DNA from: Eledone cirrhosa
Lineage: Eukaryota
Assembly (NCBI GenBank): GCA_964016885.1
Contig: OZ024742.1
Location: 276,086,001-276,150,000 of the forward strand
Direction of reading: 5' to 3'
DNA: 64,000 nucleotides
Made by a program: the position numbers and the translations under genes. The notes beneath the pieces are model-generated. The model saw only the letters and a program-made list of their open reading frames with translations, ran no database searches and was not told where the DNA came from. The stretch's first letter is position 1, and each line of letters starts with the position of its first letter. Shown here in pieces: positions 1,545 through 55,500 of the stretch.

Positions 1545-1713
1545 CATCATCATCATCATCATTATCATCATCGTTTTACGTCCATTCTTCCATGGTAGCA
1601 TGGATTAGACGGGCTGTCCTGTTGTGGGCGATGTTAGGTCGGGTGACCTTGTCTTGCTCATACAGGAACTGATTTTGGCTTGATTTCTACAGCTGAATGC
1701 CCTTCCTAACACT
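1545..1713 (-). mobile_element. RTE 3'-tail fragment
   Basis: Reverse complement reads GTTAGGAAGGGCATTCAGCTGTAGAAA ... CCGTCTAATCCATGCTACCATGGAA ... (GAT)n. Confidence 0.85.
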
Positions 1714-1822: not shown

Positions 1823-1884
<62 letters not shown>

Positions 1885-1886
<2 letters not shown>

Positions 1887-2115
1887 AGTCCACACTGTAA
1901 AGTGGTCGTATAGGCATCATGACAAAAGACACCCAGTACTCACTGTAAATTAGGTTGGCACTAGGAAGGGCATCCAGCTGTAGAGATTATGCCAAAATCG
2001 GTTCTGTATGAGCATGACATGATCACCTGACCTAACATTGCTATGCTAAAAACAGGATAACTCGTCTAACCCATGTCAGTGTGGAAAAATTGACATTAAA
2101 TGATGATGATGATGA
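1885..2115 (+). mobile_element. RTE 3'-tail fragment (one pseudoknot unit + tail)
   Basis: CCACACTGTAAAGTGGTCGT ... AGGAAGGGCATCCAGCTGTAG ... AACCCATG ... (GAT)n. Confidence 0.85.
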
Positions 2116-2683
2116 TATATATATATATATATGTAAACATGCATACATAAACACACAAAAAACATATTGACCCCCACTACATGTTTTTCAGGTTTGGTAC
2201 TTATTTTATTAATATCTGCATTTTCTGTCTACCACATTCCATTAACAAGGCATTGGTCAGCCTGAGCTCCAAACCAGTAAGAGAATTAAAGAATTTAATA
2301 GGTGAGTTTGTGTGTGTGTCTGCACATGTATAAGTATGTGTCTATGTATATGTGAAAATGTGTATGTGAGAGACTGAGAAAGAGAGCATGTGTGAGTGTG
2401 TGGACATGTCTATGTGTGTTGGTTCCTGTCTATGTCTATATGTTCGGTGTAAGTGTGTGTGTAGTGATAACTCACATTTGGCTGTTAACACTACCATCTA
2501 CCCAGCTACCATCAAATACATAGATATACAGTACAGACTACTATAGTGCTGTGTAATGTTAAGGAAAACAAACCTGACATTGTTATCAGGCACTTGGTTA
2601 CTACTAAAGACATATATTGTATAGGAAGTTAAGAATTCAGCTGCTATCTAGCAGAGCCAGGAGAAGAAATGGTTTCTATATAC

Positions 2684-2825: not shown

Positions 2826-5800
2826 CGAGGTACATTCAGTGAGTCTGCTAGATCCATTGTGGGTAAAAAAATGATGCTATAAACTTTTCTGGGTGGGAAA
2901 TGACAACGAACTGGGTGGAGTAGGAATTATGTTAGCTGAAAAATAGGTAGATAAAGTAATTGACGTAAATAGAGTGAATGACAGAATAATTAAAATAAGA
3001 CTAGTTCTAAATAGAACTACTGTGACAATAATATCCGCTTATGCACCCCAATCTGGTCTACCTGACGTTACAAAGGACAGGTTCTATGAGTCCCTAATGC
3101 ACACTACCTCCCAAATAACCGACAGCGACTACATAATTATTGCTGGCGACCTAAACGGTCACGTTGGACAACATCGTGATGGCTATGATGGAATCCATGG
3201 AGGCTATGGGTTTGGTAATAGAAATGAGGAAGGCTTCAGAATCCTAGAATTCTGTGACGCTAATAACCTAACTAACTGTAACACAAACTTCAAAAAAAGA
3301 GAAAACTACTTGATCACCTATAGATCAGGGGAACAAGCCAGCCAGATAGATTATATACTTACTAGAAGACGTGATAAAGTGTCTGTTGTAAACACTAAAT
3401 CCCTCCCCCGGGAAGAATGCACCTCCCAACATAGCCTAGTAGTTAGTGACCTCATAGTCAGGAATAGACGTACTCGACGACAGAGGAGGACTACCCCGAG
3501 GAGAAGAATATGGAAGTTGAAGGACCCCATAGCCAGTGACAAATTTAAAAGCTTATTACTTGACAATAAGGAAGAGCAATTAGAGACGTACAATATAGAG
3601 GAACAGTGGGAATTCCTGAAAGCTAACCTACTGAAAGCGACAGAAGAAATCTGTGGCTGGAGCAGACCTATTAGCAGGAGGAGAGTAACTTGATGGTGGA
3701 ACAGTAAGGTGGAGGAGACAATCAAGGCCAAAAAGCAGGCTTGGAAAGTATGGCAGGATGGGGGAAGTAGAGAACACTATCAAGCGGTCAGGAGAGAAGC
3801 TAGGAGACAAGTGTACCTTGCAGAAAGGGAAGCAGAGGATAGAAAGTTCAAGCATGTTCTACAACGTGAGGTGTTCAGGATTGTTAGACAATGTATCAAA
3901 GAAAACCGCGATATTGTCGGGGAGAAGTGTGTCCGTAATGATAATGGTGTACTTGCCCTCACTGATACTGATAAGAAGGTAGCTTGGAAGTGTCACTACG
4001 AGAGACTATTAAATGAGGAGAATAAATGGGAAAAAGATAGTCTGCCCCAAATCGATCCAATAGAGGGACCAGCAGTGCAAGTTAAAGGTAGTATAATAAG
4101 TAAGGCAATCAAAGATATGAAGACAGGCAAGGCAGCTGGACCTTAAGAGATAGTTGCTGAGATGTTGAAAAGCATCTGGATCGGTGGGACATACTATGGT
4201 CACCTGTATAGTAAACCAAGTAATACAGAATGGGATCATACCAAAAGACTGGCGCAGCAGCAGCATCATTAACTGCTACAAGGGTAAAGGAGATGCTCTA
4301 GATAGGGGTAACTATAGAGGCATTAAGTTAGTTGACCAGGTCATGAAGGTCACAGAAAGAGTTATAGTGCAACTAATCAGAGAGCGAATTGATCTAGATG
4401 AAATGCAGTTTGGGTTTGTGTCAGGTAAAAGTACCACAGACGCCCTTTTCCTTGTACGACAACTACAGGAGAAGTACCTAGCTAAAAGTAAACTCCTATA
4501 CTTAGCTTTTGTAGACCTAGAGAAAGCCTTTGAAACCTAGAGAAAGCCTTTGACAGAGTCCCCTGCTCCATTATCTGGTGGGCTTTTAGAAAACTAGGTG
4601 TAGATGAATGGCTTGTGAGAGCTATACAAGCCATGTATAAAGAAACAGTCAGTAACAATGAATATAGTGAAAAATTTAGTGTAAAAGTTGGTGTTCATCA
4701 AGGCTCTGTCCTTAGCCCCCTCCTATTTATTATTGCCCTTCAGGCTATAACAGAGGAATTTAAGACCGGCTGCCCATGGGAACTCCTATACGCAGATGAT
4801 CTAACTCTCATAGCTGAATCTATGGTTGAACTAGAGAAGAAATTCCAAACATGGAAGCATGGCCTAGAATCAAAAGGTCTTAAAGTTAACTTGTCTAAGA
4901 CTAAAGTTCTAGTTTGTAGAAAGGAAAATAGGGTACAGGTTCCCTCTGGGAAATGGCCATGCTCAGTGTGTAGGAAAGGAGTAGGTAGAAATTCCATTTT
5001 ATGTCTTAAATGCAAACTATGGGTACATAAAAGATGTAGTGAGATCACAGGTAAACTATCTAAGAATGTAGATTTTATATGTGGCCGATGCTCAGGTGCA
5101 ATAAGTAGCAAGTGCCCACAGGATACTAGCTCCTTCTATTGCCCAGATGGTTCTATAGAAATAGTGGACACTTTCCGTTACCTGGGTGACAAAATCAGCA
5201 GTGATGGAGGGTGCTCTGAAAGTACAGTAGCCAGAGTCAGAACGGGATGGAAAAAGTTCAGAGAGCTTACACCGCTGTTGGCCACAAAAGATTTCTCTCT
5301 AAAAATGAAAGGCAGATTGTATGATGCCTGCATACGAACAGCAATGTTGCATGGCAATGAGATCTGGGCATTGTGTGCAGAGGGCCTGCGCAGACTGGAA
5401 AGGAACGAAGCATGCATGCTCTGTTGGATGTGTAATAGTAATATAAGTGAACAGCAAAGCATAAATGAACAAAGTGAGAAATTAGGAATAAGAGGGATCA
5501 GATGCTGTTTACTTGAGAGAAGACTACGTTGGTATGGTCACGTGATGCGCATGAAAGATGACAGCTGTATAAAAAAGTGTAGGGCGATCAAAATTGATGG
5601 AAGTTACGAAGTAGGTAGACCCAGAAAAACCTGGGACAATTAGATAAATTCTGACCTTACACACTTGCACCTCTCTAAGACAATGTCACTGGACCGAGAT
5701 CTTTGGCACCACGCAGTAATACAGAAGACCCGCCTTGCCTATGTACAAAGCGAAACCTAGAGTCAGTAGGCACCTCTTAACCAAATATACACACCATCCC

Positions 5801-6332
5801 ACTACCCCTACCCTATCCTCCCACTCCCACCAACACCACCCTCTCTCTGTAAAGTTGGTACCACAACATCCAGTCCAAATAAATGAGAAAATGAGATTGT
5901 GTAGGTGTCATGACAAAAAAAACACACAGTCCACGCTGTAATGTGGCCGTGTAGGTAACACGGTAACAAATTCCCAGTCCACATTGTAAATGTGGTTGGT
6001 GTTGGCAAGGGCAACCAGCCATAGAAAACCTGCCTCAAATTGAGACAACTCCTGTGTAACCCATGCTAGCGTGGAAGATGGACGTCAAACGATGATGATG
6101 ATGATGATGATGATTCAATAAGTTTTGAGACTTTTTCTTTTCAGGCACTTTGGGAGCTGAGTCTACTGTCATGATCCAGAGACCAAAAGACAGAGTGCCC
6201 AGCGGCTGGAGCACTACAATAAGTGCATTGAAGTTGGAGGATCCTACTTAGAGGGAAACTAGAGTTTTCTGTTGATCTGAGTTAAATAAATGTCTCTCTG
6301 ATAAAGTCTCAAAACCTCTTGAGTGTGCCTCA
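2826..6332 (+). mobile_element. Mariner deletion derivative (~230 bp) whose left TIR is split by the RTE insertion (pieces 2826-2838 and 6113-6332)
   Basis: The rejoined left end ta-CGAGGTACATTCA|ATAAGTTTTGAGACTTT matches the reverse complement of the right end ta-TGAGGCACACTCAAGAGGTTTTGAGACTTT. The interior encodes DPETKRQS and RLEHYNKCIEVGGSYLEG, which are mariner transposase motifs. Confidence 0.8.
2839..6112 (+). mobile_element. RTE-clade LINE copy 1, 5'-truncated, pseudogenised (APE endonuclease, RT, PHD finger, 3' UTR, (GAT)n tail)
   Basis: ORFs 2974-3693 (SAYAPQ, IAGDLNGHVG, QIDYIL), 4184-4540 (NYRGIKL, FVDLEKAF) and 4615-5643 (GVHQGSVLSPLLF, YADD, RRLRWYGHV, GRPRKTW). ATTCA is duplicated at 2834-2838 and 6113-6117. 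Confidence 0.95.
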
Positions 6333-6858: not shown

Positions 6859-8384
6859 ACCATAGAATGGATGCTTATGTTAATGTTGATCATAGTTCTG
6901 CTTTTGAAGATAAGACTCTGAAGGTCTAGAAATGTGGAGAGATGTGGAATCTTTAATGTTCCAAATAAACTGTAAACAACTTAGATAATATGATAAAACT
7001 TTTAGTTTAAAAAACAGATAAAACTAGAACACAGACTTGTGTTTCAATATAACATGTTTAACAGAAAAGCTGTTCACCATGCATACATATGTAAGTATAT
7101 CATCATCATTATATATTTTTTATTTCAAATAGGAATGACTTCTTATAAATATATTACACACGCACACACACATCCTTCTAGTTATAATAAAAAATATAAT
7201 TAGATCAGTTGAAATCTGAAGGGAAACATCTGATCTTTATGGATAAAACAGATTGTTGGTGATGGTGGTGGTAGGTAGCAGTGGTGTATGATGGTGTGTG
7301 GTAGTAATGGTGTTAAATGATAGCAACTTTCCAAAGCAAAATGTAACAATAGGTTACAATATCTCACTTGAAAATAAAATCAAACCACTCGGCATGAGTT
7401 GACTACATTCTCAAGTGGATCACATATAAAAGGAGCCAAACAGCAGATTAGATCAAAGAAACTAGTTTTCATTGATTCCTTAATTAATGAGTTAGTATTG
7501 AATTAAATGCCTTGGTATTTTGTTCTGATTCTCTGCACTATCCTGTGTTCACCTGTTACCAGTGCCACTTTTGCCTTTTGGGGTTGATGAATATAGTCTA
7601 AGGTGGTGGATTGGCTGAATTGTGAGAGTTGAAATGGATGCTTTGTGGTATCTGTTCCAATTCTGTGTTCTGAGTTCAAACCTCACTTCCTTCTGTCAAG
7701 AGATGCAACTTGTATATAGTATCACCTAGTGAAAACATAGTTTCCTTCATTTCATCTGATGATTGGCTACTATCCATCTATGATAAAATAAATAACAGAC
7801 TATAAAAAAATAAATGCTGGGGTCAATACAATCGACTAAATCTTTTCAAGATGGCCACAGTCTAATAACTGAAACCCAGTAAAGGAATAAAAGAATACTA
7901 TTTCTATCTCTACATGTGTATGTAAAAAGATGTATAAGAATCAGAATTATTGTTGATCTGAGAGGAGAGACAGAGAGAAAGAAAATTAGAGATGAGTGAA
8001 AGGTAGTGGAAAAGTATAAGAGAGATTGAGGGAGAGAGAGAGGTATGCGTGTGTGTGTGGGGGGGGGGCTGTAAAGTTACAACACAACTGATTAGGAATA
8101 GAATTAGTCTAAATGTGGTGTGGTTTGATACTGTGCCAGGAAGAAAAAGTACTGCTGATGGCATATTCCCCTTAGTTTGACAATAGGTGAAGGCATGGCT
8201 GTGTTGTTAAAGCATTCACTTGACAACCAAATGGTTTCGGGTTCAATTCCTAATAAAATTTTACTTGTATTTTTTTTCTAATACAAGGGAGTTTATGGGG
8301 AGGTTAGGCTGCTTACACATTGAGTAAAGAGTATACCAACTTTCTATTGCTCAATGATTCTAAAAATAGATTGTTTACATTTAC

Positions 8385-9345
8385 TGTGCTGGGACAGCAA
8401 GCAGCAAACAGCCACAGGAAACAAGTACCACCAATCTCTGGGAGGGCTCTGTAGAAACAGTAGACAGCTTCTGCTACCTAGGTGACCGAATTAGCAGCGG
8501 AGATGGGTGTTCAGAAAGTACAATAACTAGGGTAAGAACGGGATGGAAGAAGTTTAGGGAACTACTACCACTGCTAGCTGCAAAAGGCTTCTCCCTCAGA
8601 ATGAAAGGCAGACTGTATGATGCGTGTATCCGAACAGCAATGTTGCATGGTAGTGAGATCTGGGCGCTGAAGGTGGAAGACTTACGTAGATTAGAGAGAA
8701 ATGAAGCCTGCATGCTCCGATGGATGTGTAACAGTAATATACGTAAACGACAAAGCATAAATGAATTGAGAGAGAGACTGAGCATAAGAGGAATCAAATG
8801 CTGTGTGCTGGAGAGGCGGTTGCGCTGGTATGGACATGTGATGCGTATGAAGGATGACAGCTGCATAAAAAGGTGCAGAGCACTAGAAGTTGATGGAAAC
8901 CACAGAGTGGGGAGACCCAAGATGACCTGGGATGAGGTGATAAAAGCCGACCTTACCCAATTACACCTCTCAAAGGCGATGACACACGACCGTGACCTCT
9001 GGCGTCACGCAGTAATACAGAGTACCCGACCTCCCATGGGTACAAGCTGAAGCATATAGACAATATGCTCCCACCGTAAGGTGGTCGTGGAGGTGCCACG
9101 GCAAAAAAGCACCCAGCCCACACTGTAAAGCGGACGTGTAGGCGCCACGAAAAAGCACCCAGCACTCACTGTAAATGAGGCTGGTGTTAGGAAGGGCATC
9201 CAGCTGTAGAAATCAAGTCAAATCAGTTCCTGTATGAGCAAGGCATGGTCAGCCGACCAGACACTGCCCACAACAGGACAACCCGTCTAACCCATGCTAG
9301 CGGGGAAGAACGGACGTAAAACGGTGATGATGATGATGATGATGA
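8385..9345 (+). mobile_element. RTE LINE 3' fragment with 3' UTR and (GAT)n tail
   Basis: ORF 8601-9050 is homologous to the C-terminus of copy 1 (MKGRLYDACIRTAMLHGSE ... GRPKMTWDEVI). Confidence 0.95.
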
Positions 9346-9768: not shown

Positions 9769-10111
9769 TGGAGGCACATGGCTTAGTGGTTAGAGCATTG
9801 GCCTTGCAATCGAAAGGTTGTGAGTTCAATTCTCAGACCGGGTGATGTGTTGTTTCCTTGAGCAAGACACTTTATTTCACATTGCTCCAGTTTACTCAGC
9901 TGTAGAAATGAGATGATAGGGACTGGGGTCCATATCATTCCACTGCAAAGTGGTCGTGGAGGCGCCACGGCAAAAAAGCACCCACCACTCACTGTAAATG
10001 AGGTTGGAAGGGCATCCAGCTGTAGAAATCGAGCCAAAATCAGTTTCCGTCCCACCCTTGCAAGCAGGGAAAAGGCAGACGTAAAATGAAATGATGATGA
10101 TGATGAAATGA

Positions 10112-10113
<2 letters not shown>
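9769..10113 (+). mobile_element. tRNA/CORE-like SINE head abutting an RTE 3' tail
   Basis: A box TGGCTTAGTGG, B box GAGTTCAATTC, CORE-like TCCTTGAGCAAGACACTT, then the pseudoknot unit, GGAAGGGCATCC and (GAT)n. Confidence 0.75.
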
Positions 10114-10257: not shown

Positions 10258-11044
10258 GAATATGAATAAACAAAGTTAATTTTAACCTGTTGATTCTCTA
10301 TGTCTTTTGTCTTTCTCGATATAGATACACCTATGTAACAAATATACTATCTTAGTTAGTTCATGCTACTATATATATTTACCAGAAATGTTTGTTTGGC
10401 TTGTTGGTATATGTGATTGAAGAAGGGAAAGCAATTTTCACCAAAGCATCGGTATAGACCAATAAGGAAATAAAACTGCTAATTACATATATTTATTTCT
10501 TGCATTGAAATTCAACAAAACCACAAGAGAAACAATAATGCAACGGAGGTATGCAAAACTTCAAAATAACATTAGTTAAGTATGTTTCATTAACATATTA
10601 GTATAATATAGAGTTCACAGAAGAAGAGTTATTTTGTTGTGATATAGTGGACCTTGTAAGCAAAATGTATTAGAGAGAGACAGATTGAATATGTGAAAGT
10701 AGAGATACAATAGAATAAAGATATCATCTTGATGCCTGGCAGATTGACTAACCTAGTGGCATGGCTGTAGCAGTGCTGCCCATTGCTGCTGAGTGCTACA
10801 GCCAAAGTCTTTTGTGGAGTCTCTAACAGAGGCCTTGGTGCTGTATGGTTTGCGCACTCCCACACACCACCACCACCACTTGTACTCTATCAGCCATACT
10901 CCCACACCACTTAATCCTTTCTCCCTGTACACCCCTTCCACTTACTCATTGCCCTGCCAAATTTCTATATACACCTATAACTTCATACCTATCTCCCTCC
11001 CTATCACCCTACTCCTCAGAGCAGAGAGGGGGTCTTCAGTTGGG

Positions 11045-11603
11045 ACTATGACAAACAACTTCTCTAGTGCTGATACCATGAAAATGCACCCAGTACACTC
11101 TGTAAGGGTTGAGGGCAACAGGCAGGGCACCCCACTGCAGAAACCATGCCTAAAAGAGTTAAGAAGACCCTTCAGTTGCAGTTGTGTCAATGACACAATA
11201 ACCTCTTTAGTGTTCTATACAAGAAATGCACCCAGTACATGCTGTAAAATGGTTGATGATAGGAAGGGCATCCGACCGTAGAAAGCTTGTCAAACAAAAT
11301 GTTGGGAAAACCCTTCAGTTATGTCAAGGACATGACAACCTCCCTGGTGTTGGTGTTCTACATGATAGAAGTATCCAATACATGCTGTAAAGTGGTTGGT
11401 GTTAGGAAGGGCATGCAGCCATAAAAATCAGTTTGTGTCAAAGACTGTTTCAAACAAGGTGCAGAGACCTTCTCCCTCAACCTGCCTGAGTGGTCAGTTT
11501 CCCCCCACCTCACATCTCTGGGAGGTCAGTAGCCTCACATCAGTACTGGCTTGGTCTATGTAGATCCATCCAACCCTTGCTAGCAGGGAAAGAGTACTGA
11601 TGA
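11045..11603 (+). repeat. Three diverged ~140-bp tandem copies of the RTE-tail module followed by a terminal tail
   Basis: GCACCCAGTACA..CTGTAA ... GG(A/C)AGGGCA at ~11087, ~11228 and ~11371. Confidence 0.7.
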
Positions 11604-20458: not shown

Positions 20459-20490
<32 letters not shown>

Positions 20491-20496
<6 letters not shown>

Positions 20497-21515
20497 CGTA
20501 AAATAAGAAAATTTTTTTTAAAAATTAAAAAAAAAATTAACTTACTTACTTATATTTTCACTCCAACTAATTAGTTTCTGCAATGGGATAAAGACAGTTA
20601 CGTAATGAACTGTTGAGAATTTCATTGCGTCATCAGGGAGGTCATTCTCAGCCAAGTCTATGAGTCCCCAGTGTCCGCGCATTGCCTGGAGACTTGGCTG
20701 AGAATGACCTCCCTGATGACGCAATGAAATTCTCAACAGTTCATTACGTAACTGTCTTTATCCCATTGCAGAAACTAATTAGTTGGAGTGAAAATTTAAG
20801 TAAGTAAGTTAATTTTTTTAACAAATTTTCTTATTTTACGTCTTTTATATTATTGTTCTGCATTCTCCTGCATTGAACCACCTAGGTACTATGACATAAC
20901 CTGTGTATTTGCTGGCATTAGCGTACATCTGTGCGCTTATGTTAGTAGATATATTAAATTATCTATATTTATCTCCAAATCACTGATTTGTCGAACAAAC
21001 CTGCCAAAACCACTTCTAAATTTTTGGGGGGTGTTAGTAGGCGTCTGTCATCTTACCATCCCGTTCCTACTGACTAGCCTCTGTGTCACGTGATTGATTC
21101 TTTAGAATCGGCCATATGACCAGTGGCAGTAAGAATTTTCAGTAGCTGGAATCCAGTCCTCGATAGCTGTTCCATTTACCGAATTATTATTATTTTTATA
21201 TGAGTCCCCAGTGTCCGCGCATTGCCTGGAGACTTGGCTGAGAATGACCTCCCTGATGACGCAATGAAATTCTCAACAGTTCATTACGTAACTGTCTTTA
21301 TCCCATTGCAGAAACTAATTAGTTGGAGTGAAAATTTAAGTAAGTTAATTTTTTTTATTTTTTTTTTTTTTAATTTTCTTATTTTACGTCTTTTATATTA
21401 TTGTTCTGCATTCTCCTGCATTGAACCACCTAGGTACTATGACATAACCTGTGTATTTGCTGGCATTAGCGTACATCTGTGCGCTTATGTTAGTAGATAT
21501 ATTAAATTATCTATA
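20491..21515 (+). mobile_element. ORF-less pLTR-type element: 170-bp inverted arm + 1.6 copies of a 540-bp unit, within (TA)n
   Basis: 20491-20659 is the reverse complement of 20690-20850. TATGAGTCCCCAG starts at 20659 and again at 21199 (period 540). Confidence 0.85.
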
Positions 21516-21634
21516 TATATATATATATATATATATAGTGGTGGAACACTGGAAGGTAATATCCGTAGTGGTAGAGCACTCAGTCCAAGGGACGAGTTAG
21601 GTAGAAGTGGTTACACAACAGTTAGTTCACCATA

Positions 21635-30245: not shown

Positions 30246-30619
30246 TGTAAAATAAAATAAACCTGTTGTGAGCTACGAAACTCAGAATTTGTCAATCCCT
30301 TATTATTGGCTAGACCGCTTGCCCGCTCCTCTGTGAAATGTAATGTACAATGCTATTTTTTTCTCTTCTCTCCATCTTCCCCCGGTCCATTCATCTATCT
30401 ATATCATCGTCCAGAATCCAATCTTTGCTTCTTTTTCAATGTTATTCTATAATTCTGTCTGATTGTTCAAAATAATCTTCTTGTATTTTAAAATCACATA
30501 ATTCTTCTCTTATTACTGTTATAAGCTTGTTCAATTATGCCCCAAAATCGAGGATTTTATTTAAACTTCGCTAACTACCCCATACCTCTCCCACCCGCCA
30601 CCACTCGCCACCATTATTA

Positions 30620-33600
30620 CTTGATCCAATCGTAAGTCAGCGGCCTATGCTATCACTTCTTAAGTTTAGACCTGGTTGCCTTTCGATATGATGGATGGAC
30701 TACGAAATTCTGGAGAGTCTGAAAAATCTGGACTCTCAAGGACAATGCCAAAGATAAAGACAAATTCACCTCATGCTGCCGGACGAGAATGCAAGGACTC
30801 CTCTTCTTTATTTCGGCCGCGGATGGCCAATATAACCCCATCTCCCTCACCCCTCCCTGCACCCCACCAAACGCAATCCAAAACTTCAGAGTTGGTACCA
30901 TGAATGTAGGCACCTTAAAAGGTCACTCTAACGAGGTTGTAGAAATGCTTGAATGTAAGGAGGTTGATGTTTGCTGTATCCAAGAGATTAGGTGGAGGGG
31001 TGGGTCTACTAGATTCATTGTGGGTAAAAAATGATGCTATAAGCTTTTCTGGGTGGGAAATGACAATGGGCTGGGTGGAGTAGGAATCATGCTAGCAGAA
31101 AAATGGGCAGATAAGATAATAGACGTAAATAGAGTGAACGACAAAATAATTAAAATAAGGCTTGTCCTAAATAGAACAACTGTGACAATAATATCTGCAT
31201 ACGCACCCCAATCCGACCTGCCTGGCGTTATAAAAGACAGATTCTATGAGTCATTAATGCCCACTACCTCCCAAATAACCGACAGTGGCTACATAATTAT
31301 TGCTGGCGACCTAAATGGTCATGTTGGACAACATTGTGACGGCTATGACGGAATCCATGGAGGCTATGGGTTTGGTACTAGAAATGAGGAAGGCTCCAGA
31401 ATCCTGGAATTCTGTGATGCAAATAACCTAACTATCTGTAACACTAACTTCAAAAAACGAGACAATCACTTGATCACCTATAGATCAGGGGAACACGCCA
31501 GTCAGATAGATCATATCCTTACCAGAAGACGTAAACACTAAATCCCTCCCCCATGAAGACTGCACCTCCCAACATAGACTCATAGTTAGCAACCTCATAG
31601 TCAAGACGAGACGTTCTCGACAACAGAAGAGGACTATCCTCAGGAGAAAAATATGGAAGCTAAAGGAACCCACAGCCAGTAATAAATTTAAAAGCATATT
31701 ACTTGATGCTTTCGACAGTAAGGAAGAGCAATTAGAGTCGTACAATATAGAGGAACAGTGGGAATTCCTGAAAGCTAACCTGCTGAAGGCGACAGATGAA
31801 ATCTGTGGCTGGAGCAGACCTATAGGCAGGAGGAGAGTAACGTGGTGGTGGAACAGTAAGGTGGAGGAGTCAATCAAGGCCAAAAAGCAGGCTTGGAAAG
31901 TATGGCGGGATGGGGGAAGTAGAGAAGACTATCAAGTGGCCAGGAGAGAAGCTAGGAGACAAGTGTACTTCGCAAGAAGGGAAGCAGAAGAAAGAAAGTT
32001 CAAGCATGTTCTACAACGCGAGAACCAAAACCGTGAGGTGTTCAGGATTGCTAGGCAATGTGTCAAGGAAAACCGTGATATTGTCGAGGAGAAGTGTGTC
32101 CTTAACGATGATGGTATACTTGCCATCACTGACACTGATAAGAAGGTAGCTTGGAAGTGTCACTATGAAAGGCTACTAAATGAGGAGAATAAATGGGAGA
32201 AAGACAGTCTCCCCCACATCGATCCAATAGAGGGACCAGCAGTGCAAGTTGAAGGTAGTATAATAAGTAAGGCAATCAAAGATATGAAGACAGGTAAGGC
32301 GGCTGGGCCTTCGGAAATAGTTGCTGAAATGCTGAAAGCATCTGGAACGGTGGGACACATTATGGTCCCCCGGATAGTAAACCAAGTCATACAGAATGGG
32401 GTCGTACCGAAGGACTGGCGTAGCAGCATCATCATTAACTGCTACAAGGGTAAAGGAGATGCCCTAGATAGGGGAAACTATAGAGGCATTAAATTAATTG
32501 ACCAGGTCATGAAGGTCACAGAAAAAGTAATAGCGCAACTAATCAGAGAGCGAATTGATCTAGATGAAATGCAGTTCAGGTTTGTACAGGAGAAGTACCT
32601 AGCTAAAAGTAAACTCCTATACTTAGCTTTTGTTGACTTGGAGAAAGCCTTTGACAGAGTCCCACGCCCCATTATCTGGTGGGCTCTCAGAAAACTAGGT
32701 GTTGATGAATGGCTTGTGAGAGCTATACAAGCCATGTATAAAGAAACAGTCAGCAAGGTTAGAATTAACAACGAATATAGTGAAGAGTTTAGCGTAAAAG
32801 TTGGTGTTCATCAGGGCTCTGTCCTTAGCTCCCTCCTATTTATTATTGCCCTTCAGGCTATAACAGATGAGTTCAAGACCGGCTGCCCATGGGAACTCCT
32901 ATACGCTGATGATCTAACGCTTATAGCTGAATCAATGGCTGAACTAGAGAAGAAATTCCAAACATGGAAGCATGGCCTAGAATCAAAAGGCCTTAAAATT
33001 AACCTTTCTAAGACTAAAGTTCTAGTATGTAGAAAGGAAAATAGGGCACTGGTCCCATCTGGGAAATGGCCATGCTCAGTGTGTAGGAAAGGAGTAGGCA
33101 GAAACTCCATTTTATGTCCCAAATGCAAAGTATGGGTGCATAAAAGATGTAGTGGGATCACAGGTAAGCTAACTAAGAATATAGATTTTATATGTGGCCG
33201 GTGCTCAGGCGCAATAAGTAGCAGCAAGTGCCCACAGAATACTAGCTCATTCCATTGCACAGATGGTTTTATAGAAATAGTGGACATCTTCCATTACCTG
33301 GGTGACAAAATCAGCAGTGGTGGAGGGTGCTCTGAAAGTACAGTAGCTAGAGTCAGAACGGGATGGAAAAAGTTCAGAGAGCTTATACCACTATTGGCCG
33401 CTAAAGGTTTCTCTCTAAAAATGAAAGGCAGGCTGTATAATGCCTGCATACGAACAGCAATGTTACATGGCAGTGAGACTTGGGCATTGTGTGCAGAGGA
33501 TCTACGCAGACTGGAGAGGAACGAAGCTTGCATGCTCCGTTGGATGTGTAATAGTAATATACGTGAACTGCAAAGCATAAATGAATTAAGTGAGAAATTA

Positions 33601-34245
33601 GGAATAAGAGGGATCAGATGCTTTTTATTCGAGAGAAGACTACGTTGGGATGGTCACGTGATGCGCATGAAAGACGACAGCTGTATAAAAAAAGTGCAGG
33701 GCGATCAAAATAGACGGTAGCCACGGAGTAGGCAGACCCAGAAAAACCTGGGGCGCCTTGATAAATTCCGACCTTACACACTTACACCTCTCCAAGACAA
33801 TGTCACTGGACCGAGACCTTTGGCGCTACACAGTAATACAGAAGACCCGCCTTGCCTAAGTGCAAAGCGAAACCTAGTCAGTAGGCACCTCTTACCAAAA
33901 TACACCCCGTCCCACTACTCCCACCCCATCCACACCACCCCTTTCGATGTAAAGTTATGTTGGTACCACAACATCCAGCCCGAAACAAATGCGGTCGTGT
34001 AGGTGTCACGACAAAATAACACACAGTCCATGCTGTAATGTGGTCATGTAGGTAACACGGTAAAAACCTCCCTGTCCACACTGTAAACGTGGTTGGTGTT
34101 AGGAAGGGCATCCAGCCGTAGAAAACCCGCCAGACAGTCCTATACGAGTAAGACAACCAATCTTGCCTCAAGTGAGAAAATTCCTGTCCAAACCCATGCA
34201 AGCGTGGAAGATGGACGTATGATGATGATGATGATGATGATGATG
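30620..34245 (+). mobile_element. RTE-clade LINE copy 2, near full length, pseudogenised
   Basis: N-terminus MMDGLRNSG..., APE (RVGTMNVGTL, CCIQEIRW, GDLNGHVG), 619-aa RT + PHD ORF 31861-33720, 3' UTR and (GAT)n. Frameshifts and a deletion near 32580. The 5' boundary is uncertain. Confidence 0.95.
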
Positions 34246-34255
34246 AAGGTATTTG

Positions 34256-36302: not shown

Positions 36303-37140
36303 CAGCTACCACATGTGGCACAGGTCCTCACAGACTTGTGGTCCCTTTCAACAGCTGTAGTGACAGAGTAGCTATCACATGTGGCACAGGTCCTCACAGA
36401 CTTGTGGTCACTTTCAACAGCTGTAGTGACAGAGTAGCTATCACATGAGGCACAGGTCCTCACAGACTTGTGGTCACTTTCAACAACTGTAGTGACACAG
36501 TAGCTATCACATGTGGCACAGGTCCTCAGACTTGTGGTCACTTTCAACAACTGTAGTGACACAGTAGCTATCACATGTGGCACAGATCCTCAGACTTGTG
36601 GTCACTTTCAACAACTGTATTGACAGAGTAGCTATCACATGTGGCACAAGTCCTCAGACTTGTGGTCACTTTCAACAACTGTAGTGGCAGAGTAGCTATC
36701 ACATGTGGCACAGGTCCTCACAGACTTGTGGTCACTTTCAACTCCTGTAGTGACAGAATAGCTATCACATGTGGCACAGGTCCTCACAGATATGTGGTCA
36801 CTTTCAACTCCTGTAGTGACAGAATAGCAATCACATGTGACACAGGTCCTCACAGACTTGTGGTCACTTTCAACTCCTCTAGTGACAGGGTAGCTATCAC
36901 ATGTGGCACAGGTCCTCACAGGTTCGTGGTCTCTTTCAACTCCTGTAATGACATAGTAGCTATCACATGTGGCACAGGTCCTCACAGACTTGTGGTCACT
37001 TTCAACTCCTGTAGTGACATAGTAGCTATCACATGTGGCACAGGTCCTCACAGACTTGTGGTCACTTTCAACTCCTCTAGTGACAGGGTAGCAATCACAT
37101 GTGGCACAGGTCCTCACAGACATGTGGTCGCTTTCAACTA
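36303..37140. repeat. 66-bp minisatellite (about 13 units; some 64-bp units)
   Basis: Unit GTAGCTATCACATGTGGCACAGGTCCTCACAGACTTGTGGTCACTTTCAACTCCTGTAGTGACAGA; GTAGCTA at 36368 and 36434. Confidence 0.95.
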
Positions 37141-37581: not shown

Positions 37582-37705
37582 ACTTCGGTTAATTATTGGA
37601 AATTTCCAAGGTATTGTTGTTGTAGTGGTGGTGTGATAGTGGTTGCGTTGTGGTATTGATCTCGTCGTTATTTGGCAAAACAGAACCTACCATCATAACC
37701 ACTTA

Positions 37706-38166
37706 CATCCAGCCCACACTGTAAAGTGGTCGTGTAGGTGACACGATAAAAAATACCCAGCCCACACTGTAAAGTGGTCTTGTAGGTGACACGACAAAAA
37801 GCATCCAGCCCACACTGTAAAGTGGTCTTGTAGGTGACACGACAAAAAGCATCCAGCCCACACTGTAAAGTGGTCTTGTAGGTGACACGTCAAAAAACAC
37901 GCAGCCCCCACTGTAAGGTGGTCGTGAGGTGCCACACAAAAAAATTCCAGCCCACACTGTAAAGTGGTCTAGTAGAAATCACACAAAAAGCACCCAGCAT
38001 AACTGTAAACGTGGTTGGCGTTAGGAAGGGCATCGAGCTGTAGAAATCTAGCCAGAAACAGTTCTATATGAGCAAAACACGGGCAACTGACTAAACTTGC
38101 CTCAAATGGGACAACCCGTCTAACCCATGCTAGGGTAGAATGTTGACGTTTAACGATGATGATGAT
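37706..38166 (+). mobile_element. ORF-less RTE-tail element with six tandem 48-bp hairpin/pseudoknot units
   Basis: CCAGCCCACACTGTAAAGTGGTCGTGTAGGTGACACGACAAAAAGCA at 37709, 37757, 37805, 37853, 37901 and 37947, then GTTAGGAAGGGCATC ... AACCCATGCTAG ... (GAT)n. Confidence 0.9.
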
Positions 38167-40609: not shown

Positions 40610-41285
40610 ACTTTTTCTCGTGTTCTATTAACTAATCTAACCTCCAAGATGCTGGCAATCAACCTTTTCCCCGGAATACGGAGGTGGCGGGGTGTCCCCA
40701 CATCCTCGGATAACACCCTCCTTCCTCAGAGTTTTCCCTACGATTTTTTTTTTTTCGTGTTATCAACGAATTGGACCTCCAAACCAGTCAGAACCGACTA
40801 GATTTGCAGAAAAGGGGGGTGGGGTGAAAAGGGGCGAAAAGACCATCGGCGTTTCGCAAATTGACACACCTCTCGCGTTTCCTTGATGTTTTCTGAACCT
40901 CTGAGATGTTTGCAATACACTTTTTTTCCCCCGAGTTAGGTTTAGGTTTAGGATTAGATTTATGGTTAGGGTTTCCGTTTACCGTGAGAAAAAATCGATT
41001 GCAAGCATCTAAGAAGTCCAGAAATTTAATTATTTCCCACAAAACGCGAGAGGTGTATAGATCTGGGAAACTCCGATGGTCTTTCTCCTCCTTTCGCCCT
41101 ACTTTTTCTACAAATGTAGTCGTTTCCGATTGGTTTAGAGGTCATATTCGTTAATAACACGTGAAAAAGAAAATTGGAGAGAAAACTCCCGGGTACCCAC
41201 ACTACTCCTTTCCTTCTCCAAGAAAAAAAGTCGATTGCCAGAATCTTCGACGTTAGATTAGTTGACAGCGCACGAAAAAAAAATC
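40610..41285. mobile_element. Degenerate ~680-bp foldback element with central (GGTTAG)-like repeats
   Basis: 40612-40660 is inverted at 41232-41280, and 40750-40815 is inverted at 41100-41168. A related fragment lies at 46060-46130. Confidence 0.65.
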
Positions 41286-42061: not shown

Positions 42062-42071
<10 letters not shown>

Positions 42072-42494
42072 TAAACGGAATAGAAAATGCTGACAAATTG
42101 TTCACAGTTGAAAAATGGTTTAATTAGGAATAAAAGAGTATTAGTGATTGTATGGGTTAGTATTCAGTTGTGGTTTTAAGTTTTTAAGTTTTTACCGGTT
42201 GCGCATTTCTAAATGCTTTTCAAAAATAAAAAAATAACGCTGGAGCAACTTTTTTAACATAAAAACAGGTAGAATTCCCAAAACTAATCAGATCAGAGCA
42301 AACAGCACGGACACTCTATCTCAAAATTATTTTTGAAAAGCATTTAGAAATGCGCAACCGGTAAAAACTTAAAAACTTAAAACCACAACTGAATACTAAC
42401 CCATACAATCACTAATACTCTTTTATTCCTAATTAAACCATTTTTCAACTGTGAACAATTTGTCAGCATTTTCTATTCCGTTTACCAATATATA
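42062..42494. mobile_element. ORF-less palindromic pLTR element (~165-bp apparently perfect arms, ~97-bp spacer)
   Basis: 42062-42229 is the reverse complement of 42327-42494. Each arm carries TTGAAAA-GCATT/AATGC-GCA-ACCGGT-A. Confidence 0.9.
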
Positions 42495-43782: not shown

Positions 43783-44822
43783 ATTACCTGCCCCTGGTAA
43801 GCAGTACAGTGGGCTAAATATCTATGTGTATGGTAAACGACTTGGAGTGGTTGATCAGTTTGTCTACCTGGGAAGCACTGTCAGTCGATACAGCAACTTT
43901 GATAATGAAATCCCACCCAGGATTAGGAAAGTAAGTGATGCTTTCGGAAAGCTAGAAAGGCGACTCTGGGGTCTGTGAGACATATGCAAGAAGACGAAGG
44001 TAAAGGTGTACAAGGCATGTGTGTTGTCCTCTCCTTTATGCCTGCGAGACCTGGGTCACATATCGACATCACCTTAAACAATTGGAGCGTTTCCATCAGA
44101 TGTGTCTCAGACGGATCCATGGCATTCACTGAAGGGACCACATCAGTGATGTCAAGATTTTGGAAAGTTCTCTGAGTGACAGTATAGAAGCTCTTGTGCT
44201 TAAGCAAAGACTCCGTTGGAGTGGTCACCTTGCCAGAATGAAGGATTCTAGAATACCAAAACAACTCTTTTCTGGAGAGTTAGTTAAAGGAAAACGACCT
44301 CCACATAAACCAAAAAAGAGGTATAACGATTCGTTGAAAGCCTCTTTGAAAGACGCTAACATCTCTGCTGGTACATGGGAAAATGTTGCTGCTGATCGTA
44401 ATAAATGGAGAAAGACTTTCCCCTCATATATGAGGAAGTTGCCTTTGAGGCATCTCGAATCGCATACGAGAAAGTAAAGCAGGATGTGAGGAAGGGCATT
44501 ACTGTTGCATTTCCAGACAGCGAAGGTCCTCCTATGGTGCTGACATGCAGCGTTTGTGCGAGACTGTGCCTCAGCAAAGCTGGACTCGAAAGTCATCTTC
44601 GCAGTCATAAAGTGAAACCAGTGGTTGACTACCAGTCTGCTGTTGGAGATGCTACTCAGCATGCTTGCCAAGCATGTAGAGAATGTAAATCAGCAGGAGG
44701 GCTCAAACGACATGCACTCCAGCCACAGCCGGCTATTCCCAGTGAATGTTTTGGTTGCCAACTCTGTGCAAGACATTTTAGATCATTGGCTGGGCTAAAA
44801 AGCCACATCCGATCGCAGCACT
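43783..44822 (+). pseudogene. RTE (BovB-like) 3' fragment with three C2H2 zinc fingers
   Basis: VDQFVYLGSTVS, QRLRWSGHLARMKDSRIPKQL..GEL..GKR, CSVCARLCLSKAGLESHLRSH, CQAC-RECKSAGGLKRH and CQLCARHFRSLAGLKSHIRSQH. Confidence 0.88.
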
Positions 44823-44843
44823 GTCAATTGTTATCGCGCGCGC

Positions 44844-44874
<31 letters not shown>

Positions 44875-45099
44875 TGTGTGTGCGTGCGTACATGTGTGTG
44901 TGTATGTGAGTGTGAGAGTGCGTATAAATATGTATATGTGTGTGTGTATAGATATATATATATTATTACTATTATTATTGTTATTATTGTTGTCGTTATT
45001 ATGTGTTTTATTTTCTTTCAATTGCCATACTCGAAAACGAGGGAGCAGCCATCATTTATGTGTGTATGTATTTATGTCAAGGCGGTATTCCAGCATGTT

Positions 45100-45360
45100 A
45101 GTTAAAGTTAAAGTCTGTCTCGAGCCCGAAGACTCATTAGGCCGTTACATATCCTGGTTTCTGTGGCGTGAAGCGACTGAGAGTACAAGACTCCCCAACC
45201 CTGGACAGGATGCCAGTCCATCGCAGGGTTAATCCTCACCCCCACCCCACCAATAGCTGGGCATACTGGAGCAACGTGAAATGAAGTGTTTTGCGCAACC
45301 CAGTCAAGGAATCGAACCCACGACATTATAGTCGTATGTCCAACATCATACCACTATGTA
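45100..45360 (-). mobile_element. tRNA-derived SINE (CORE/Meta-like)
   Basis: Reverse complement has the GGTTCGATTCC B box and AACCCTGCGATGGACTGGCATCCTGTCCAGGG. Confidence 0.75.
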
Positions 45361-52519: not shown

Positions 52520-55500
52520 TCATGTTTTCTGCTCCTCACTGATGTTCTCTAGCCCACAGATATGTTGTCTCCTCTCTCTGTCAGTTCTTCCACTACAACC
52601 GTAGTCTCTGCTCCTCACTGACGTACTCTAGCCCAGGCATGTCAAACATGCGACCTTTTACAAGCTCACCTGCGTGCCGCACGAAGGTTTTTACAGTGCG
52701 AGCATATTTTATCTTCGTAACATAAAATTTAAAAAAATAGTTGTAATATGTGCAATTAGTTGTCGTGTGTGGCCCTCAGACAACATATATGTGACACATG
52801 TGGCCCTCGGGGGAAGCTCAGTTTGACGTGCCTGCTCTAGCCCACAGATATGTTGTCTCCCCTCTCTGTCAGTTCTACCACTACAACTATAGTCACTGCT
52901 CCTACCTGACATACTCTAGCCCACAGATATGTTGTCTTCCCTCTCTGTCAGTTCTACCACTACAACTGTAGTCTCTGCTCCTACCTGACATACTCTAGCC
53001 CACAGATATGTTGTCTCCCCACTCTGTCAGATCTACCACTACAACTGTAGTCTCTGCTCCTACCTGACATACTCTAGCCCACAGATATTTTGTCTCCCCT
53101 CTCTGTCAGTTCTACCACTACAACTGTAGTCTCTGCTCCTACCTGACATACTCTAGCCCACAGATATGTTGTCTCCTCTCTCTGTCAGTTCTACCACTAC
53201 AACTATAGTCTCTGCTCCTACCTGACATACTCTAGCCCACAGATATGTTCCCTCCCCTCTCTGTCAGTTCTACCACTACAACTGTAGTCTCTTCTCCTCA
53301 CTGACATACTCTAGCCCACAGATATGTTGTCTCCTCTCTCTGTCAGTTCTACCACTACAACTCTAGTCTCTGCTCCTCACTGACATACTCTAACCCACAG
53401 ATATGTTGTCTCCTCTCTCTGTCCGTTCTACCACTACAACTGTTGTCTCTGCTCCTACCTGACATACTCTACCCCACAGATATGTTGTCTCCCCTCTCTG
53501 TCAGTTCTACCACTACAACTATAGTCTCTGCTCCTACATGACATACTCTAGCCCACAGATATGTTGTCTCACCTCTCTGTCAGTTCTACCACTACAACTA
53601 TAGTCTCTGCTCCTACCTGACATACTCTAGCCCACAGATATGTTGTCTCCCCTCTCTGTCAGTTCTACCACTACAACTATAGTCTCTGCTCCTACATGAC
53701 ATACTCTAGCCCACAGATATGTTGTCTCCCCTCTCTGTCAGTTCTACCACTACAACTATAGTCTCTGCTCCTACCTGACATACTCTAACCCACAGATATG
53801 TTGTCTCCCCTCTCTCTCAGTTCTACCACTACAACTGTAGTCTCTGCTCCTCACTGACATACTCTAGCCCACAGATATGTTGTCTCCTCTCTCTGTCAGT
53901 TCTACCACTACAACTATAGTCTCTGCTCCTACCTGACATACTCTAGCCCACAGATATGTTGTCTCCCCTCTCTGTCAGTTCTACTACTAGAACTGTAGTC
54001 TCTGCTCCTACCTGACATACTCTAGCTCACAGATATGTTGTCTCCTCTCTCTGTTAGTTCTACCACATCTATAGTCTCTGCTCCTACCTGACATACTCTA
54101 GCCCACAGATATGTTGCCTCCCCTTTCTGTTTAGTTCTACCATTACAACTGTAGTCTCTGCTCCTCACTGACATACTCTAGCCCACAGATATGTTGTCTC
54201 CCCTCTCTGTGAGTTTTACCACTACAACTATAGTCTCTGCTCCTCACTGACATACTCTAGCCCACAGATATGTTGTCTCCCCTCTCTGTCAGTTTTACCA
54301 CTACAACTATAGTCTCTGCTCCTCACTGACATACTCTAGCCCACAGATATGTTGTCTCCCCTCTCTGTCAGTTCTACCACTATAACTATAGTCTCTGCTC
54401 CTCACTGACATACTCTAACCCACAGATATGTTGTTTCCCCTCTCTGTCAGTTCTACCACTACAACTATAGTCTCTGCTCCTCACTAACATACTCTAGCCC
54501 ACAGATATGTTGTCCCCCCTCTCTGTCAATTCTACCACTACAACTGTAGTCTCTGCTCCTACCTGACATACTCTAGCCCACAGATATGTTGTCTCCCCTC
54601 TCTGTCAGTTCTACCACTAGAACTGTAGTCTCTGCTCCTACCTGACATACTCTAGCTCACAGATATGTTGTCTCCTCTCTCTGTCAGTTCTACCACATCT
54701 ATAGTCTCTGCTCCTACCTGACATACTCTAGCCCACAGATATGTTGTCTCCCCTTTCTGTTTAGTTCTACCATTACAACTGTAGTCTCTGCACCTCACTG
54801 ACATACTCTAGCCCACAGATATGTTGTCTCCCCTCTCTGTCAGTTCTACCACTACAACTGTAGTCTCTGCCCTTACCTGACATACTCTAGCCCACAGATA
54901 TGTTGTCTCCCCTCTCTGTCAGTTCTACCACTACAACTATAGTCTCTGCTCCTCACTGACATACTCTAACCCACAGATATGTTGTTTCCCCTCTCTGTCA
55001 GTTCTACCACTACAACTATAGTCTCTGCTCCTCACTGACATACTCTAGCCCACAGATATGTTGTCTCCCCTCTCTGTCAGTTCTACCACTACGACTATAG
55101 TCTCTGCTCCTACCTGACATACTCTAACCCATAGATATGTTGTTTCCCCTCTCTGTCAGTTCTACCACTACAACTATAGTCTCTGCTCCTACCTGACATA
55201 CTCTAGCTCACAGATATGTTGTCTCCCCTCTCTGTCAGTTCTACCACTACAACTATAGTCTCTGCTCCTACCTGACATACTCTAGCTCACAGATATGTTG
55301 TCTCCTCTCTCTGTCAGTTCTACCACTACAACTATAGTCTCTGCTCCTCACTGACATACTCTAGCCCAGAGATATGTTGTCTCCTCTCTCTGTCAGTTCT
55401 ACCACTACAACTATAGTCACTGCTCCTCACTGACATACTCTAGCCCACAGATATGTTGTTTCCCCTCTCTGTCAGTTCTACCACTACAACTATAGTCTCT

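What the first reader, a model, noticed from the sequence alone, without database searches (positions are those of the whole stretch)
37706..38166. Tandemly amplified 48-nt hairpin + H-type pseudoknot module in RTE tails: candidate undescribed structured RNA
Seen: the best unit (9084-9113) reads GTCGTGG-A-GGTG-CCACGGC-AAAAAAG-CACC, i.e. stem 1, a 1-nt loop, stem 2 and an A-rich loop, which is a textbook H-type pseudoknot. It is preceded by a CCAC/GTGG hairpin. Stem 1 covaries: GTCGTGG/CCACGGC (9084, 9953), GTCGTGT/ACACGAT (37729) and GCCGTGT/ACACGGT (5946). Copy number varies: one at 1885 and 9940, two or three in the LINE UTRs (~5840-5990, 9070-9170, ~33950-34080), and six in this ORF-less array. 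It always lies directly upstream of GTTAGGAAGGGCATCC. Inference: it may be a self-cleaving, exonuclease-blocking or RT-recognition element. Twister and HDV-like ribozymes are known companions of non-LTR elements, but this motif lacks their cores.
Basis: partly seen in the sequence, partly recalled or inferred. Interest (0 to 1): 0.75.

Follow-up and report, generated by a model that had tools for sequence, protein, structure and literature searches.

The report
Relocated retrotransposon leader knot, tandemly amplified
The repeat is a decaying tandem array of a short motif that sits in the leader of one branch of this genome's jumping genes and in the tail of the sister branch; it is predicted to fold into a small RNA knot and likely serves as a handle for the jumping-gene protein rather than as a self-cutting RNA.

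Summary
The 48-nt array is real (6.5 copies) but is a dead, 5'-truncated retrotransposon tail. No unit keeps an all-Watson-Crick pseudoknot, and copy-level changes look like uncompensated CpG decay. The module is not native to RTE tails. In the sister RTE branch (families C/D, including young intact elements) it lies in the 5' UTR just before the ORF. Distant RTEs carry the GGAAGGGCATCC segment in their 5' UTR (4 elements) and not in their 3' UTR (0 of 21). The window's tails keep the donor's ATGAGC. Between subfamilies, stem 1 and the CTGTAAA hairpin covary; stem 2 does not. Two of four distant 5' UTRs hold a strict pseudoknot of unrelated sequence and the same geometry. Self-cleavage is unlikely, because the module sits between ORF and tail in intact LINEs. 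Best reading: a movable cis-element likely bound by the RTE protein; ribosome engagement and neutral hitch-hiking are live rivals. Rfam and my literature searches found no match. The scan noted this module before on other DNA of this genome.

The parts
37706..38015 (+). 48-nt minisatellite: six pseudoknot-position units (starts 37729, 37777, 37825, 37873, 37921, 37967) and seven CTGTAAA hairpins; 5' part of a truncated, ORF-less retrotransposon tail
37729..37757 (+). best array unit: predicted H-type pseudoknot, stem 1 37729-35/37741-47, L1 37736, stem 2 37737-40/37754-57, two G.U pairs
   Evidence: sequence
37762..37777 (+). hairpin H1 (CCAC/GTGG around the conserved CTGTAAA loop), repeated in each unit
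38013..38039 (+). conserved GGTTGG..AGGAAGGGCATCC segment (H2), found in 5' UTRs of distant RTEs; sequence-conserved, no covariation
38068..38074 (+). ATGAGCA: remnant of the donor RTE's start codon context
   Evidence: side-by-side with family C and L131
38114..38166 (+). RTE-type 3' terminal segment and (ATG)n tail; possible short target duplication ACCACT on both flanks (weak)
9084..9113 (+). complete 7+4 bp pseudoknot unit (family B unit 1; same type as the SINE unit)
8370..9345 (+). 5'-truncated family B RTE LINE with a two-unit 3' UTR
2839..6113 (+). family A RTE LINE (APE, RT with PHD finger), broken, module in the 3' UTR
30560..34246 (+). family A RTE LINE with part of its own 5' UTR (no module) and a three-unit 3' UTR (first unit degenerate)
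9772..10113 (+). SINE: tRNA-like head (Rfam 28.1 bits, gathering 29), CORE-like body (label recalled), one module unit, family C-type 3' end
11020..11430 (+). three decayed copies of the 5'-UTR-type module (C/D-like, preceded by the AGAGAGG..CTCT stem)
1880..2116 (+). truncated tail with one decayed unit
1550..1712 (-). tail truncated inside H2, no pseudoknot unit

Best explanation
[quoted passage not shown] SHOWN: the module lies in the 5' UTR of families C/D, in the 3' UTR of the sister families A/B, and in the body of a SINE; the tails keep the donor's ATGAGC; genomic copies decay without compensation. INFERRED (i): the A/B ancestor captured a bipartite element (end of a 5' UTR, start codon, RTE 3' end) as a new tail, once. 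INFERRED (ii): the 48-nt unit arose by reverse-transcriptase jump-back or slippage between repeated hairpins, and arrays then grew locally in DNA. PREDICTED: the pseudoknot fold. UNTESTED: that the RTE protein binds it for RNP assembly or for completing integration, as the R2 protein binds a pseudoknot-containing 5' RNA. The array at 37706 itself has no function that I can show.
For: Location: 17 of 20 loci with the family C unit have an RTE APE ORF directly downstream (two loci overlap, so 16 of 19). Young C1 copies with intact 1022-1024 aa frames have it 5' and have a bare 3' end. Family A copies with intact 1004-1044 aa frames have it 3', and 0 of 24 A copies with their own 5' UTR carry it in 900 nt upstream. 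Tree: A+B (0.996) against C+D (0.992), joint clade 1.0. Outgroups: H2 lies in the 5' UTR of four distant RTEs, L131, L209, L428 and L201, and in 0 of 21 readable 3' UTRs of distant relatives. Bipartite forms (module, ATG, 3' end) exist here, L320 and L340, and an H2-bearing one elsewhere, L147. Structure: across nine unit types, 87% of cells are paired and 3 pairs show double changes, 2 in stem 1 and 1 in H1; 8/500 shuffles reach that count. L131 and L209 hold strict pseudoknots of unrelated sequence, 12 and 10 bp, L1=1, L2=0, 1/300 shuffles each. Against cleavage: the module sits between ORF and tail in intact LINEs and behind the SINE head. C1 5' junctions: 7 fall in the 16 nt just 3' of H1, 1 in the next 74 nt, and 5 in the next 34 nt (88 copies; P=4e-5 for 7 of 8). 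Arrays: intra-array identity 0.93 against 0.88 between arrays, with locus-private variants.
Against: There is no binding or probing data. Stem 2 is only 4 bp, invariant in 7 of 9 types and broken in register in both family A units (A2 and A3 can re-pair only in shifted registers). Crude energies make the pseudoknot about equal to the plain hairpin in this genome's units. The nine types are related and were hand-picked, so the shuffle counts are not probabilities. The third distant 5' UTR, L428, failed the strict test (only a G.U-rich candidate, 8/100 and 20/100 shuffles). The fourth, L201, has none, and 7 of 8 SINE-like outside copies have none (the eighth, L196, a chance-level 4+4 match). H2 shows no covariation, 500/500 shuffles as high. 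The junction pile-up is spread over 16 nt, was classified by hand, has no background rate from the ORF, and is not seen in A tails (0 of 33) and barely in B/SINE tails (3 of 54). Most distant relatives retrotranspose with no such module at the 3' end. A one-time captured tail could persist neutrally.
Confidence: 0.47

Rival explanations
1. The module engages ribosomes or initiation factors. In 5' UTRs it would work as an IRES-like start element; in SINEs and 3' UTRs it would dock the RNA on ribosomes that make RTE protein, or act as a 3' translation enhancer.
For: It ends 6-15 nt before an ATG in families C and D and in the captured tails. A second possible knot, GGGCAT pairing with a downstream TGCC-like strand, has 4-6 bp in C1, C, one D copy, L209, L221, L218 and L220 (lead from note e1-10330631). 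HDV-like ribozymes of R2 and L1Tc are proposed to act as IRESs (PMC6765202, passages).
Against: The youngest intact family, C1, has lost that ATG, and its next ATG is 41 nt after the helix. The second knot shrinks to 3 bp in B, SINE, E and array tails, and is absent in L131 and at chance level in the annelid-like copies; only 3 of 21 rows reach under 3% of shuffles, and one row (L217) picked the wrong site. In A/B it lies 3' of the stop codon.
Confidence: 0.23
2. The 3' and SINE copies are neutral passengers of a captured bipartite tail. The conserved part is a sequence signal (for example a DNA-level internal promoter element around AGGAAG) that matters only in 5' UTRs, and the pairing is incidental or relict.
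For: H2 has 13 invariant letters in 13 sequences but no covariation. Stem 2 shows no covariation. Family A units have lost in-register stem 2. Copies decay with odds ratio about 1 for compensating CpG changes. Nested folding is not unusual. Kojima 2018 suggests transcriptional roles for conserved RTE 5'-UTR parts (PMC5786205, discussion).
Against: The double changes in stem 1 and H1 occur among A, B and E types, that is after the move to the 3' end. The either-or placement (5' or 3', in the copies examined) fits a need for one copy per RNA. Unrelated-sequence pseudoknots occur at the same place in L131 and L209.
Confidence: 0.22
3. The module is a new self-cleaving ribozyme or an exonuclease-resistant RNA.
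For: Twister variants sit at the 5' end of the Schistosoma LINE Perere-3 (PMC8501958, passages), and HDV-like ribozymes are reported in RTEs (PMC6765202, passages). C1 5' ends cluster near the H1/H2 boundary. Several annelid-like H2 elements share one 5' boundary about 35 nt upstream of the GGAAGGG core.
Against: Cleavage would cut the ORF from the tail in intact family A elements and the head from the SINE. The module is internal in C UTRs. The C1 ends are spread over 16 nt, not one bond. There is no Rfam ribozyme or xrRNA match. An exonuclease block should leave ends 5' of the pseudoknot, but ends are depleted there (inference).
Confidence: 0.08

Closest known systems
[quoted passage not shown]
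   Same: An internal piece of an RTE 5' UTR is joined to an RTE 3' end and carried behind a tRNA+CORE head. Older family C leaders hold GGCAAC..GTCTAGGAGA, like the paper's conserved domain (compared by eye).
   Different: The GGAAGGGCATCC segment and the pseudoknot unit are not in that supplement. Here an autonomous LINE lineage took the bipartite piece as its own 3' UTR. The parts read propose no RNA structure.
Bombyx R2 5' RNA (pseudoknot-containing protein-binding region; bioRxiv 10.1101/2023.04.07.536001, abstract and passages)
   Same: A structured RNA near the 5' end of a non-LTR element, with a pseudoknot, is bound by the element's protein. This is the working analogy.
   Different: It belongs to another clade (R2, restriction-like endonuclease) and is far larger. 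The pseudoknot claw is auxiliary there. No sequence or structural alignment was made, and binding is untested here.
SINE-derived satellites of squamates (PMC10702118, abstract only)
   Same: Tandem repeats are born from part of a retroposon at many dispersed loci.
   Different: Here the unit comes from a LINE/SINE tail module, and most arrays keep the parent's 3' end (11 of 13).
Twister variants of Perere-3 (PMC8501958, passages) and HDV-like ribozymes of RTE/R2 (PMC6765202, passages)
   Same: Pseudoknotted RNAs in non-LTR leaders.
   Different: They sit at the element's 5' end and cleave there. This module is internal or 3', and has no Rfam match.

Membership tests
RTE-clade LINE (host elements) | single ORF with APE endonuclease and RT | tested here: met
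   Pfam Exo_endo_phos_2 and RVT_1, plus a PHD finger; single frames of 1004-1044 aa in A and 1022-1024 aa in C1
RTE-clade LINE (host elements) | short 3' end with microsatellite tail | tested here: met
   (ATG)n tails in window and loci; PMC9115989 passage calls microsatellites a common RTE feature
RTE-clade LINE (host elements) | RT phylogeny groups with named RTE references | not tested
   the tree holds only unnamed relatives; the clade label rests on architecture and recall
Bipartite RTE-derived element (Kojima 2018) | middle part homologous to an RTE 5' UTR | tested here: met
Bipartite RTE-derived element (Kojima 2018) | followed by an RTE 3' terminus without the ORF | tested here: met
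   38068-38166; SINE tail matches the C1 3' end by eye; L320, L340
Ceph-domain / known SINE domains | sequence match to the published domain | tested here: inconclusive
   unit and H2 motifs absent from the searched supplements of PMC5786205, PMC4824008 and PMC4758252; file 1 of the last two was not searchable and figures are not held; Repbase, Dfam and SINEBase were not available
Twister ribozyme | match to Rfam twister models; P1 stem next to a UAA L1 loop | tested here: not met
   no hit at E<=5 in window 1-52800 or at E<=3 in six loci; L1/P1 description from PMC8501958 passages
HDV-like ribozyme | match to Rfam HDV-like models; nested double pseudoknot with catalytic C (recalled) | tested here: not met
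   no Rfam hit; only a single H-type knot is drawn
Self-cleaving ribozyme of non-LTR elements (any class) | lies at the element's 5' boundary, cleavage site next to the target duplication | tested here: not met
   internal in C leaders, 3' in A/B, mid-SINE; 5' junctions spread
Self-cleaving ribozyme of non-LTR elements (any class) | self-cleavage in vitro | not testable with these tools
   needs an assay
H-type pseudoknot | two crossing stems can form, with feasible loops | tested here: met
   9084-9113; C1, D, SINE, L131, L209
H-type pseudoknot | covariation in both stems | tested here: inconclusive
   stem 1: 2 of 7 pairs; stem 2: 0 of 4, nearly invariant
xrRNA | blocks Xrn1 | not testable with these tools
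   no Rfam xrRNA hit; assay needed

The most novel reading that the evidence does not exclude
RTE retrotransposons across animal phyla share an unrecognised leader RNA domain (H-type pseudoknot, hairpin, invariant AGGAAGGGCATCC) that their protein grips and that works from either end of the transcript. One lineage moved it from head to tail by capturing a parasite's tail and expanded to over 100,000 copies. This would explain why RTE-dependent SINEs keep 5'-UTR pieces.
Probability: 0.3. Interest if true: 0.75.

Novelty: new variant of a known kind. Interest (0 to 1): 0.48.

Why it matters
How RTE-clade proteins choose their RNA, and why their non-autonomous partners keep pieces of the 5' UTR, is left open in Kojima 2018. 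A compact module found at the 5' end of one active branch and the 3' end of its sister, with intact young elements on both sides, makes that question testable by deletion, swap and compensatory rescue. A LINE taking a bipartite parasite's tail reverses the usual direction of tail exchange. The array itself is an ordinary retroposon-born minisatellite.

Tried and rejected
Rfam on window 1-52800 and on six loci: only microsatellite-driven or weak hits, none on the module. ARAGORN: 0 genes. Viral contigs: 0 hits for the longer pattern, no RTE relatives, and 33 short-pattern hits with no module context. Prokaryote genome contigs: 25 loci, 10 of which have the animal-element context and the rest look like chance coding matches. 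A covariance model of the unit found nothing below E=0.15 in 39 outside loci, so the pseudoknot unit's sequence is lineage-restricted in what I hold. Expression: no RNA holder listed; only contigs could be laid, and the one possibly-RNA run gave 0 laid, which is no evidence either way. Contig depth could not serve as a truncation profile. Copy-level covariation was rejected (odds ratio 0.99 for the main compensating CpG pair, 162 distinct cores). The H2 hairpin was rejected as covarying. A recalled likeness to the Meta-domain and to the pistol ribozyme P1 was not supported: motifs were not found in the searchable MetaSINE supplement and there was no Rfam hit. Identity with RTE-2_OV could not be settled: motifs were absent from the searched supplements of PMC9115989, and files 5-8 were not searched. 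Literature searches that found no description of the module; subscription papers such as the original cephalopod SINE papers are outside the library. Search of 5 contaminated assemblies for more RTE leaders gave one new element.

Full report
1. Observation. The array is there: period 48, 6.5 copies, 37705-38015, then the 16-mer, a short spacer, an RTE-type end and (ATG)n. The 16-mer is far above chance in the window (10 matches against 0.35). The unit at 9084 can form a 7+4 bp H-type pseudoknot. The array units are damaged: unit 1 pairs fully only with two G.U pairs, units 2-4 have stem-1 mismatches, and units 5-6 have lost stem 2.

2. Host elements. The window LINEs encode an APE endonuclease and an RT with a PHD finger. 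The family is huge: a C-terminal query gave 122,432 first-look candidates. 37 unselected 10-kb stretches held 17 H2 motifs and 21 units, about 134,000 and 166,000 genome-wide as a rough estimate. Family A tails have two recognisable units plus a degenerate first one (23 of 26 complete tails, from 30 loci). Family B tails have two units and the tRNA-headed SINE has one. Arrays of 6 to at least 67 anchors occur at many loci (16 examined). Units are more alike within arrays (0.93) than between them (0.88) and carry locus-private changes, which fits local growth after insertion. Three of 16 arrays have a LINE ORF end directly upstream.

3. Origin. I fetched 79 metagenome loci of relatives at 34-60% identity. 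In the 21 with more than 80 nt readable after the ORF, none had the motif in its 3' UTR (two loci are near-identical and one has no clear tail). The GGAAGGGCATCC segment lies instead in the 5' UTR of four distant RTEs: L131, L209, L428 and L201. In the window's own genome a variant of the whole module lies directly before the APE ORF of another family, C: 486 exact pattern matches, 17 of 20 loci with the ORF downstream, two of them overlapping. It is tandemly duplicated there too, with an 89-nt unit. An older form, D, has it once. Young C1 copies have intact 1022-1024 aa frames, the module 5' and a bare 3' end. Family A copies with intact frames have it only 3'. For family B I saw little true 5' UTR (two copies, both truncated). 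The tails keep ATGAGC at the spacing of the C start codon. Module+ATG+3'-end elements exist (L320, L340).

A FastTree tree, midpoint-rooted, joins A+B (0.996), C+D (0.992) and all four (1.0). Caveats: rows under 200 residues were dropped (L389, L393, L327D, Win8370). The RT rows of L382, L392, L314 and L340 appear to belong to neighbouring insertions, so D rests on L391 and L328. No clade test was run. With outgroups 5', one move to the 3' end in the A/B ancestor is the simplest history (inference).

4. Structure. Copy-level variation is CpG decay without compensation: odds ratios 0.99 and 2.3 (not significant) for compensating pairs, 1.4 and 1.0 for controls. Between nine hand-picked unit types, 87% of cells pair, and double changes occur at two stem-1 pairs (U-A/U.G/C-G; C-G/U-A/G-C) and one H1 pair. 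Four of nine types do not pair at the stem-1 junction position, though in each that base can extend stem 2. Stem 2 has no double change and is broken in register in both A units. H2 is invariant at 13 letters in 13 sequences but does not covary. Using one strict rule on the 85 nt upstream of H2, L131 (5+7 bp) and L209 (5+5 bp) hold pseudoknots of unrelated sequence with L1=1 and L2=0, each 1/300 in shuffles; C1, D and the SINE give 4+4 or 5+4 bp (2-5% of shuffles). I had noticed L131 and L209 by eye before running this test. The one leader found afterwards, L428, failed the strict rule. L201 has none, nor do 7 of 8 SINE-like outside copies. Crude energies favour the knot clearly only for L131. 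A second knot at H2, a lead from note e1-10330631, has 4-6 bp in several 5'-type and outside copies, 3 bp in most tails, and none in L131.

5. Junction probe. After seeing four C1-type copies begin near the H1/H2 boundary, I noted the idea and tested it on 88 distinct copies from 90 of the 957 pattern matches, all on one contig. By hand, 7 true or re-primed 5' ends fall in the 16 nt 3' of H1, 1 in the 74 nt covering H1, the pseudoknot and the upstream stem, and 5 in the next 34 nt. Three internal deletions and one locus-edge row were set aside. P=4e-5 for 7 of 8. My noted idea was a tight cluster, and the result is a spread. A tails show 0 of 33 and B/SINE tails 3 of 54 in the matching stretch. 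This hints that the reverse transcriptase pauses at the module in a leader context. It argues against a single cleavage site. It lacks a background rate.

6. Mechanism. A cleaving RNA would separate ORF from tail in intact A elements and head from body in the SINE, so self-cleavage is unlikely (0.08). A start element is attractive from the spacing to ATG, but C1 lost that ATG and A/B carry the module 3' (0.23). Neutral carriage explains the arrays and the weak stem 2, but not the stem-1 and H1 double changes among 3'-located types (0.22). A handle for the element's protein, needed once per RNA at either end, fits the distribution best (0.47). Its precedent is the R2 5' RNA (bioRxiv 10.1101/2023.04.07.536001, abstract and passages). 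This step is inferred.

7. Known or new. RTE 5'-UTR pieces in SINEs and bipartite elements are known (PMC5786205, parts 1-4 of 5 and supplement search), as are retroposon-born satellites (PMC10702118, abstract). Other papers seen as passages only: PMC4824008, PMC4758252, PMC9115989, PMC8501958, PMC6765202. No description of this module came up in Rfam or in the searches. Unsearched supplement files and repeat databases may hold the sequence. The scan's own notes on other pieces of this genome describe the same module; they are unchecked and not independent support, and I saw them only after reaching the 5'-UTR result.

8. Verdict. The array is ordinary; the module is a real, probably structured, relocated RTE leader element of untested function. 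New variant of a known kind; interest 0.48.

Noticed in passing
window 52835-64000: 79-nt satellite, 141 copies, 93% matches, running off the window end.
   Followed up: no
window 36304-37139: 66-nt minisatellite, 12.8 copies, 570 nt upstream of the array; no similarity to the module seen in the self-comparison.
   Followed up: no
window 4534-5643 and 31510-33720: A PHD finger lies just after the RT core of these LINEs; many unnamed relatives share it.
   Followed up: partly
G000, e.g. L374, L375, L377, L378: Very young family C1 with dozens of near-identical copies holding intact 1024-aa frames; its 3' end matches the SINE's tail by eye, so it is the likely SINE partner.
   Followed up: partly
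L357 (G000:C14:23477139-23480495): A SINE joined at the shared H2 segment to the start of a family C1 ORF: a SINE-headed LINE chimera, showing exchange at the module.
   Followed up: no
L354, L466; L041, L050, L379: Short re-copied H2 pieces at C1 5' junctions, and 112-nt re-duplications that include H2 in family A tails: signs of reverse-transcriptase jump-back at the module.
   Followed up: partly
L209, L215, L217-L221, L226, L230, L231: Animal-type retroposon DNA inside prokaryote assemblies, including RTE ORFs on G001 contig C269: likely contamination.
   Followed up: partly
window 20487-21520, 42062-42494, 40729-41188: Long inverted or direct duplications in the self-comparison, up to 100% over 168 nt.
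   Followed up: no
window 44405-45232: Broken frame with C2H2 zinc-finger matches, probably the end of another LINE type.
   Followed up: no
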